From assembly GCA_964019425.1 (NCBI GenBank), contig OZ025804.1, positions 248,001 through 312,000 of the forward strand: a DNA stretch of 64,000 nt. The letters are read 5' to 3'. Position numbers and translations under genes: made by a program. The DNA comes from Flectonema sp. DT1601. Lineage: Eukaryota. This document shows, piece by piece, positions 49,906-50,340 of this stretch. The notes below the pieces were generated by a model. That model searched no databases. It was given only the letters and a program-made list of their open reading frames with translations, and was not told the DNA's origin. Each line of letters opens with the position of its first letter. Position 1 is the first letter of the stretch.

Positions 49906-49980
49906 GTCCCTTAGAACTTACTGATGAAGGCCTAAAAAGGGCAAGTAGTATAAGATTAAGGCTCCTGAAACTTGCCCTTT
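49906..49980 (+). ncRNA. Non-circularly permuted hammerhead ribozyme, copy 1 (predicted cleavage after A49950; stem III register perturbed)
   Basis: CUUA-CUGAUGA(49921-27)-AGG ... AGU-A-UAAG-AUUA-AGGCUCCU-GAAAC(49967-71). An alternative 11-bp pairing AAAGGGCAAGU/ACUUGCCCUUU shifts stem III. Confidence 0.65.
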
Positions 49981-50270
49981 GATGTTAGGAAACTGCAGAA
50001 ATGAATACTTTTCTTTGACTTATCTCTACTTTTTTATTCTCACTTTTCTACACAAAAATTAATGATACTAACTGATTTCCAAGTTACCAAAAAAAAAAAG
50101 GGACAAGATTAAGGCTTCAGTGTTATTATAATTTATTTGATGTTTTTCGCCGTCTTGTTTTTCTCAAATGCATTCTTTTTTAAATAATCTCATATACTAA
50201 CTAACTAAGCAAGACTGGCGAGCTCCGATGGATTTTTATCTTAGAACTAGCAACTTCAACATAGAATGAA

Positions 50271-50340
50271 GTCCCTTAGAACTTACTGATGAAGGCCTAA
50301 ATAGGGACAAGTAGTATAAGATTAAGGCTCCTGAAACTAC
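50271..50340 (+). ncRNA. Non-circularly permuted hammerhead ribozyme, copy 2 (predicted cleavage after A50316)
   Basis: Stem I CUUA/UAAG, core CUGAUGA 50286-92, stem II AGG-CCU/AGG-(CU)-CCU, GAAA 50333-36, stem III GUAGU/ACUAC, GUA triplet, extra helix GUCCCU/AGGGAC. Confidence 0.8.

What the first reader, a model, noticed from the sequence alone, without database searches (positions are those of the whole stretch)
49906..50340. Second, sequence-unrelated family with the same permuted hammerhead fold, in tandem 365 nt apart
Seen: copy 2 reads GUCCCU UAGAA CUUA CUGAUGA AGGCCUAA AU AGGGAC AA GUAGU A UAAG AUUA AGGCUCCU GAA ACUAC. Every stem differs in sequence from the 58.8-kb copy yet still pairs (I CUUA/UAAG, II AGG/CCU, III GUAGU/ACUAC, strut GUCCCU/AGGGAC). 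The core, the GUA triplet and an AUUA linker between stems I and II are shared. This amounts to covariation evidence within one window. I found no canonical GU-H-stem I strand downstream of GAAAC. Established: tandem hammerheads a few hundred nt apart typify retrozymes and Penelope-like element termini. Inference: cleavage after A49950 and A50316 would release a ~366-nt monomer that might circularise. Copy 1 has a perturbed stem III and may be slower or inactive.
Basis: partly seen in the sequence, partly recalled or inferred. Interest (0 to 1): 0.9.

Follow-up and report, generated by a model that had tools for sequence, protein, structure and literature searches.

The report
Rewired hammerhead ribozymes in diplonemid repeats
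A protist genome, likely a diplonemid's, carries two families of repeated DNA with a rare rewired hammerhead fold, so far reported from only two host-less soil sequences, that is predicted to cut its own RNA and likely frees mobile-element RNA from the host's long multi-gene transcripts.

Summary
It is the type-CSG, non-circularly permuted hammerhead (Eckert et al. 2023), published from two soil-metagenome sequences without a host, both cleaving in vitro. The window holds three copies on the gene strand (cores at 49921, 50286, 58794). [quoted passage not shown] Of 11 core-anchored pairs, 5 change on both sides and none breaks. Controls: 0 in 400 shuffled windows; 0 of 85 pattern-matching database loci fold, against 3 of 3 here. 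The host is likely a diplonemid. Both families look like dispersed repeats: other flanks appear in a public run, and the 58.8-kb copy follows a multi-copy zinc-finger ORF. The proposed 366-nt circle is weak. Copy 1 is predicted locked in an 11-bp rival helix, and the monomer folds no better than shuffles. Best reading: mobile-element ribozymes that likely cut element RNA out of polycistronic transcripts. No reverse transcriptase partner was found and cleavage is untested. New here: a host lineage, a repeat context and two further families for CSG hammerheads.

The parts
50261..50349 (+). Family 1, copy 2: complete type-CSG hammerhead fold (joining helix, stems I-III, core, GUA; predicted cut after 50316) with a tentative outer helix 50261-50268/50342-50349
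49896..49989 (+). Family 1, copy 1: same core and GUA (cut site after 49950), 11 nt missing after GAAAC, 3-bp stem III, 11-bp rival helix 49936-49946/49970-49980; predicted inactive or slow
49890..50254 (+). Tandem unit 1 (about 365 nt); first 184 nt 88% alike to unit 2, remainder 64%
50255..50601 (+). Tandem unit 2
50410..50459 (+). Pyrimidine tract, UACUAAC and AG about 140 nt after the cut; 42 of 43 nt identical to the 3' end of an inferred intron at 53307-53349; candidate splice acceptor
50098..50118 (+). Fragment of a further family 1 hammerhead (3' strand of the joining helix followed by the linker, cleavage block missing)
   Evidence: sequence; 12-nt repeat
50461..50485 (+). Likely 3' remnant (GAAAC block and flank) of another hammerhead variant; one contig of run X1 joins it to the cleavage block
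58770..58850 (+). Family 2: complete type-CSG fold (joining helix 10 bp, stems I 5, II 5, III 4 bp; predicted cut after 58822), tentative outer helix 58770-58775/58845-58850
58163..58616 (+). 3' part of a multi-copy basic ORF whose full form (242 aa) has a CxxC-x9-HxxxC motif; cut off at its 5' side by a 2-kb inverted-repeat element; its stop lies 178 nt before the family 2 core

Best explanation
The three motifs are type-CSG hammerhead folds in two families of likely mobile repeats of a likely diplonemid protist, and the intact copies are predicted to cut their RNA after GUA, which would free element RNA from the host's polycistronic transcript. Steps. (a) Shown: all copies lie on the strand of the long gene array, so read-through would transcribe them with no promoter of their own (inferred; diplonemid genes are in co-transcribed arrays, PMC10161547). 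(b) Predicted: the joining helix and stem III fold first as two hairpins, probably closed by an outer helix into a three-way junction. Their loops then pair with each other as stems I and II and build the ordinary hammerhead core. (c) Inferred from the tested CSG-1 and CSG-2: a slow cut after A50316 and A58822. (d) Inferred: the cut defines one end of the element RNA, which a reverse transcriptase encoded elsewhere copies back, as proposed for the HDV-like ribozyme of trypanosome L1Tc/NARTc and for hammerheads of Penelope-like ends. A cut inside the core leaves half a ribozyme on each product, which would favour head-to-tail copies and explain the tandem and the fragments at 49.9-50.6 kb. (e) Copy 1 is likely a dead copy, so this locus would be cut once, not twice.
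For: Fold. Same wiring, 2-nt spacer before stem III and AUUA after stem I as in published CSG-1/-2, which cleave at 0.004 and 0.026 per min. The joining helix was not part of the search pattern yet is present in 3 of 3 window hits; 0 of 85 pattern-matching loci from viral, metagenome and prokaryote collections pass the three stems. Host: the FCaBP protein is 81% identical to a protein labelled Rhum and 65% to one labelled Hpha (labels used for diplonemids; expansion to Rhynchopus and Hemistasia is recalled) against 49% to Bodo saltans; GTATG donors match Diplonemidae; all long ORFs from 0.5 to 54 kb with Pfam hits are on the + strand. Repeats: all 5 contigs of run X1 laid on 50150-50520 run on into other flanks. 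The ORF before family 2 has 6 near-identical members placed on 7 contigs, a second subfamily of 4 and 5 further pieces, all on 45-835 kb contigs; one diverged copy stays alike to 58762, 8 nt before the fold. Analogy: PMC3383444, passages.
Against: No cleavage or transcript data. No RT, endonuclease, target-site duplication or element boundary was found, and the whole genome is not held. It is not shown that a hammerhead follows the other ORF copies or that these come from one assembly. Covariation rests on two independent window sequences. Family 1 has only 3 uninterrupted pairs in stem II with A-U next to the core. A nested fold of copy 2 with 100 nt of 3' flank loses stem III, so cutting may be limited to a short window during transcription. 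The outer helix is weak (2% and 12-16% of random partners do as well). Run X1 is shallow and may be the source sample.
Confidence: 0.55

Rival explanations
1. Retrozyme-type circle: both cuts release a 366-nt monomer that is ligated to a circle and reinserted as tandem arrays.
For: Unit length and low GC fit non-LTR retrozymes (150-450 bp); similarity covers most of the unit; long-range type I and III orders can be drawn across the two copies.
Against: Copy 1 is predicted locked in an 11-bp rival helix; the monomer is not self-paired; the two units are 64-88% alike and contain fragments of other copies; family 2 is single and follows an ORF. An ancestral circle is not excluded.
Confidence: 0.15
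2. Host processing or decay signal: the ribozymes, whatever their origin, are kept because the cut ends or destabilises the upstream message or helps split the polycistron ahead of a trans-splice acceptor.
For: Family 1 lies between two host ORFs on their strand; an acceptor-like tract follows each intact cut at about 120-140 nt; 42 of 43 nt of it match the end of an inferred intron; SIDER2 repeats in Leishmania 3' UTRs cause cleavage and decay.
Against: Only one of the many intergenic regions of the array has one; copies are decaying; family 2 sits in a nest of repeats; no orthologous locus could be tested.
Confidence: 0.15
3. Relics: the fold was active in the ancestral elements but none of these copies cuts in cells, because rival pairing wins.
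For: Copy 1 is misfolded; nested folding offers other partners for the core strands of copy 2 and loses stem III with longer flank; published CSG rates are low.
Against: Copy 2 and family 2 have no broken core base or pair; the ORF family is young (93-99% identity).
Confidence: 0.13
4. Chance or another RNA class, such as a box C/D snoRNA (UGAUGA and CUGA occur in family 1).
For: A C-box-like and a D-box-like word lie 45 nt apart in family 1 (sequence).
Against: Family 2 has no CUGA there; no Rfam family reaches its cut-off; shuffle and database controls are empty.
Confidence: 0.02

Closest known systems
Type-CSG hammerhead ribozymes CSG-1 and CSG-2 (Eckert, Friedrich, Weinberg, Weinberg 2023, PMC10085705; read: parts 2-6 of 8 of the main text, part 2 of 42 of the supplement and passages with Supplementary Figure 10)
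   Same: [quoted passage not shown]
   Different: Cut after GUA instead of GUC; all stem sequences differ; found in long contigs of a eukaryote as repeats, whereas the paper had two unique soil-metagenome sequences and none from a known organism; a tentative outer helix; an interrupted stem II in family 1; cleavage untested here.
Non-LTR retrozymes of animals (PMC7229834, passages; bioRxiv 10.64898/2026.07.22.740005, part 1 of 5)
   Same: Short, low-GC, head-to-tail units of a few hundred nt with one hammerhead each, intergenic, non-coding.
   Different: Those carry type I hammerheads and give highly self-paired circles; here the order is CSG, one of two copies is predicted dead and the monomer is unstructured.
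Hammerheads in the terminal repeats of Penelope-like elements (PMC4209133, passages; bioRxiv 10.1101/2021.04.23.441226, passages)
   Same: Hammerhead just outside an element ORF; partial tandems.
   Different: Type I or minimal type I there; no RT or GIY-YIG ORF found here.
HDV-like ribozyme of trypanosomatid L1Tc/NARTc/SIDER retroposons (PMC3383444, abstract and passages)
   Same: Ribozyme in a euglenozoan repeat, proposed to release element RNA from polycistronic transcripts; downstream sequence can switch it off.
   Different: Other ribozyme class; it cuts before base 1 and travels whole, while a hammerhead is split by its cut.

Membership tests
Type-CSG hammerhead ribozyme | Block C: CUGAnGA directly between strands of stems I and II | tested here: met
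   3 of 3 copies
Type-CSG hammerhead ribozyme | Block S (stem III strand, UH, stem I strand) and block G (stem II strand, GAAA, stem III strand) | tested here: met
   Copy 2 and family 2 complete; copy 1 keeps only 3 pairs of stem III
Type-CSG hammerhead ribozyme | 5'-to-3' order C, S, G within about 70 nt | tested here: met
   Only CSG hits among six orders, both strands
Type-CSG hammerhead ribozyme | [quoted passage not shown] | tested here: met
   6 bp and 10 bp, each matched by 0.07% of 3000 random partners; 5 bp in copy 1 but outcompeted
Type-CSG hammerhead ribozyme | Covariation in the stems | tested here: met
   5 of 11 core-anchored pairs change on both sides, 0 break, between families 1 and 2; two independent sequences only, no statistical test
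Type-CSG hammerhead ribozyme | Self-cleavage after the UH | not testable with these tools
   Needs a bench assay; shown only for CSG-1 and CSG-2
Non-LTR retrozyme | Head-to-tail units of 150-450 bp, low GC | tested here: met
   Two units of about 365-379 nt; the 2-kb bins holding them are 36-39% GC
Non-LTR retrozyme | Type I hammerhead, intact in at least two consecutive units | tested here: not met
   Order is CSG; copy 1 predicted misfolded
Non-LTR retrozyme | Highly self-paired monomer | tested here: not met
   z -0.09 and -0.29 against 60 shuffles
Non-LTR retrozyme | Expressed as circular RNA | not testable with these tools
   No RNA data could be laid
Penelope-like element terminus | RT ORF (with or without GIY-YIG) next to the hammerhead repeat | tested here: not met
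   No such Pfam hit in 29, 12 and 73 frames of the window; the DNA after family 2 is replaced by other repeats, and the rest of the genome could not be searched
Penelope-like element terminus | Type I or minimal type I hammerhead | tested here: not met
Box C/D snoRNA | C and D boxes with terminal stem; Rfam match | tested here: not met
   No D box in family 2; no Rfam match at cut-off

The most novel reading that the evidence does not exclude
Diplonemids harbour an undescribed group of retroelements, marked by a small zinc-finger ORF, that use the doubly pseudoknotted CSG hammerhead instead of a promoter or poly(A) signal: the cut frees the element from the host polycistron just ahead of a trans-splice acceptor, and CSG hammerheads, known from two orphan sequences, are a common lineage-wide feature of these genomes.
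Probability: 0.3. Interest if true: 0.8.

Novelty: new variant of a known kind. Interest (0 to 1): 0.62.

Why it matters
Type CSG is the weakly supported hammerhead wiring: two similar sequences, no host, no role, and the authors call its evidence weaker for lack of covariation. Two more families with different stems add the missing covariation, point to AUUA as a conserved linker, and place the fold in the nuclear repeats of a eukaryote, so its biology becomes testable. Standard hammerhead models miss it (Rfam found none of the three), so genomes scored as lacking hammerheads may hold many. In a host that makes polycistronic transcripts, a self-cutting repeat between genes can also alter mRNA ends. 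In the library searched, 'CSG' with hammerhead, permutation and ribozyme occurs only in the original paper, and the three papers holding both 'hammerhead' and 'Diplonema' concern mitochondria by their titles; searches listed no title on permuted hammerheads in protist genomes.

Tried and rejected
Whole genome: not held, so no copy count. Rfam: no hammerhead match on the window or on 49700-50800, as expected for a pseudoknotted order. More copies in the window: a descriptor with one relaxed core base found only the two intact copies; nhmmer found only the intron piece at 53307 (E 5e-9) and the 32.7-kb piece (E 0.036). The patterns were fitted to four known sequences, and the two published CSG contigs were not returned, so this shows rarity under these patterns and not absence. 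The first pattern had gap limits that exclude family 2 and the published pair. The ORF before family 2: no Pfam family (only weak scores under cut-off), no relative in viral contigs, Atlas best 0.86, a lead only, 7 hits among 1.84 billion representatives, none longer than 242 aa; its structure prediction had not finished after five collections and is not used. Sequencing runs: one run, share 0.06, no RNA holder listed; depths are not copy numbers and are not used as such. Spliced-leader identity of the piece seen and at 55565: recalled, not confirmed; the PDF supplement of PMC10161547, which may hold the sequence, gave no hit. Pfam could not confirm the 22-aa exon after the intron; the intron rests on the GTATGT and CAG ends and the WD40 pattern. 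Minimum-energy z-scores of the ribozyme regions are not significant (-1.3, -1.6, -0.1), which is uninformative for a pseudoknot. An assembly duplication was rejected: the units differ by 12% or more with indels, and short contigs of X1 carry the core and both other blocks. Earlier findings: none for this genome or sequence.

Full report
What is there. The window is eukaryotic: kinesin, MatE, JmjC, NOT, lipase, CS-domain and WD40 genes all on the + strand over about 54 kb, with long T and A tracts between them. Its FCaBP protein is 81% identical to a protein labelled Rhum, 65% to one labelled Hpha and 49% to Bodo saltans. These labels head diplonemid columns; their expansion to Rhynchopus and Hemistasia is recalled. 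Intron donors read GTATG, the commonest donor in three diplonemids. I take the host to be a diplonemid. Diplonema papillatum has unidirectional gene arrays, trans-splices nearly all mRNAs and is rich in retroelements and 28S rRNA pieces (passages).

The observation. All strands quoted for copy 2 pair as stated. A descriptor for the six possible orders of the three hammerhead blocks finds three hits on both strands of 64 kb, with cores at 49921, 50286 and 58794, all on +, all in the order core, cleavage block, GAAA block (at stricter settings only the last two). In 400 shuffled windows that order appeared 0.015 times per window and never with the extra helix. A sequence pattern that ignores pairing matched the same three places and 85 loci in viral, metagenome and prokaryote collections; 3 of 3 window matches and 0 of 85 database loci form the three stems. 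[quoted passage not shown] Between family 1 and family 2, 6 of 11 core-anchored pairs are identical, 5 change on both sides and none breaks.

What it is. Eckert et al. 2023 (PMC10085705) divide the hammerhead into blocks C, G and S and name the six orders; this is type CSG. They found two similar CSG sequences, both cleaving at the predicted site at 0.004 and 0.026 per min, only in metagenome DNA, and state that no such RNA was found in a known organism's genome apart from one GCS candidate. Their alignment shows the same layout as here: a joining helix from the 5' end, a 2-nt spacer before stem III as in family 1, and AUUA after the core-side pairs of stem I. I compared these by eye. Every sequence-level feature of the type is met; cleavage is untested. 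In nested folding, the joining helix and stem III form with high probability in copy 2 (0.75-1.0 and 0.94-0.99 per pair) and family 2 (0.92-0.99 and 0.73-0.78), closed by an outer helix into a three-way junction. That outer helix is new but tentative: 2% of random partners do as well for copy 2 and 12-16% for family 2. A hint in its favour is that one X1 contig changes A to G in its 5' strand while the remnant at 50471-50478 has the matching C; these are different molecules.

The tandem. Units are 88% alike over 49890-50073/50255-50452 and 64% over the rest, above all 204 intergenic controls. Copy 1 lacks 11 nt after GAAAC and has three more changes that together make an 11-bp helix (-16.1 kcal/mol) which takes the strands of stem III and of the joining helix; it is predicted at probability near 1 once transcribed. 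So the second cut needed for a 366-nt monomer is doubtful, and that monomer folds no better than shuffles. Pieces of further copies lie at 50098-50118 and 50461-50485. About 140 nt after the cut sits a pyrimidine tract, UACUAAC and AG, 42 of 43 nt identical to the 3' end of an inferred WD40 intron at 53307-53349; family 2 has a looser tract and AG about 117 nt after its cut.

Evidence for repeats. One public run holds the region (share 0.06). Two of its pieces match an ORF at 51.6-52.0 kb without a difference, so the organism or a close strain is in it; it may be the source sample. All 5 contigs laid on 50150-50520 continue into other flanks; one keeps the 5' strand of the joining helix and the core with a new upstream flank, and one joins the cleavage block through 7 other letters to the remnant at 50462, a variant with another stem II strand whose partner could not be read. 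Family 2 lies 178 nt after the stop of an ORF whose full form has a CxxC-x9-HxxxC motif. It has 6 members at 93-99% identity on 7 contigs (one may be this window's), a second subfamily of 4 at about 50% and 5 more pieces, all unnamed, on contigs of 45-835 kb. One diverged copy reads through its stop and still matches 58655-58762, so ORF and 3' flank travel together up to the ribozyme. I could not see whether those copies carry the fold. No RT or endonuclease was found in the window.

How it likely works. Shown: the fold, the strand, the repeats. Inferred: read-through transcription from the gene array; slow cutting after GUA, probably during transcription since 100 nt of 3' flank is predicted to displace stem III in copy 2, a behaviour also reported for the L1Tc ribozyme; use of the cut end by a reverse transcriptase encoded elsewhere. 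It works like the ribozymes of Penelope-like ends, retrozymes and trypanosome retroposons. It is not a member of non-LTR retrozymes or Penelope-like termini, because the hammerhead type, the folded monomer and the RT were tested and not met. I give 0.9 that the intact copies are true CSG ribozymes, 0.8 that they belong to mobile repeats and 0.55 to the whole mechanism. Rivals: a circle-forming retrozyme (0.15), a host processing or decay signal (0.15), inactive relics (0.13), chance (0.02).

Novelty. The ribozyme is a new member of a known but almost empty type; the repeat that carries it is a variant not matched by the families above. The searches named under Why it matters found no report of CSG hammerheads in a known organism; most subscription papers are outside the library, and 41 of 42 parts of the Eckert supplement were seen only through keyword passages. 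Unchecked notes of this scan describe other rewired hammerheads in animal retroelements; they have a different wiring by their own summaries, were not tested here and are not counted as support. Interest 0.62: a specialist would value a host, a context and covariation for type CSG, but the fold is published, the partner is missing and nothing has been assayed.

Noticed in passing
window 56187-58162, 59035-60627, 60648-62623; inverted remnant 35164-35487: Three copies (92-96% alike) of a 2-kb element with G-rich/C-rich terminal and subterminal inverted repeats and no Pfam-matching frame; looks like a non-autonomous DNA transposon. One copy cuts off the ORF before family 2.
   Followed up: partly
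window 55752-56002: A 58-nt tandem pair and joined pieces of large-subunit rRNA (Rfam E 4e-18), covering the stretch recalled as the R2 insertion site; D. papillatum has about 3600 scattered 28S pieces.
   Followed up: partly
window 55565-55582, and record 5 of run X1 after 50433: An 18-nt stretch matches 17 of 18 letters of a piece that follows the family 1 pyrimidine tract in one shallow X1 contig; the piece resembles a euglenozoan spliced leader as I recall it, unverified. A looser look-alike follows copy 1 at about 50066-50088.
   Followed up: partly
window 11051-11787: Another intergenic head-to-tail pair of about 361 nt, 87% alike, with several hairpins and no hammerhead core.
   Followed up: partly
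window 32697-32778: 82 nt, 77% alike to the 3' flank of family 2 (58871-58946), with no ORF or ribozyme, 160 nt before a start codon.
   Followed up: partly
window 53250-53356: Inferred 107-nt intron of a WD40 gene whose 3' end is 42 of 43 nt identical to part of the family 1 unit; either the element supplied the acceptor or captured it.
   Followed up: partly
window 41747-49177: Intron-free 2476-aa ORF with a hydrophobic stretch near its start and one LVIVD repeat hit; otherwise no Pfam family.
   Followed up: no
window 62640-64000, minus strand: Broken frames with a glutamine-rich start, no Pfam hit; possibly the remnant of another mobile element.
   Followed up: partly
window 577-3053 and 35659-41506: Duplicated FCaBP genes (93% alike) and duplicated BspA-type LRR genes with 75-nt repeats.
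   Followed up: no
window 7694-7777, 8216-8304, 20522-20590: Short shared intergenic segments of 42-46 nt, 88-93% alike.
   Followed up: no
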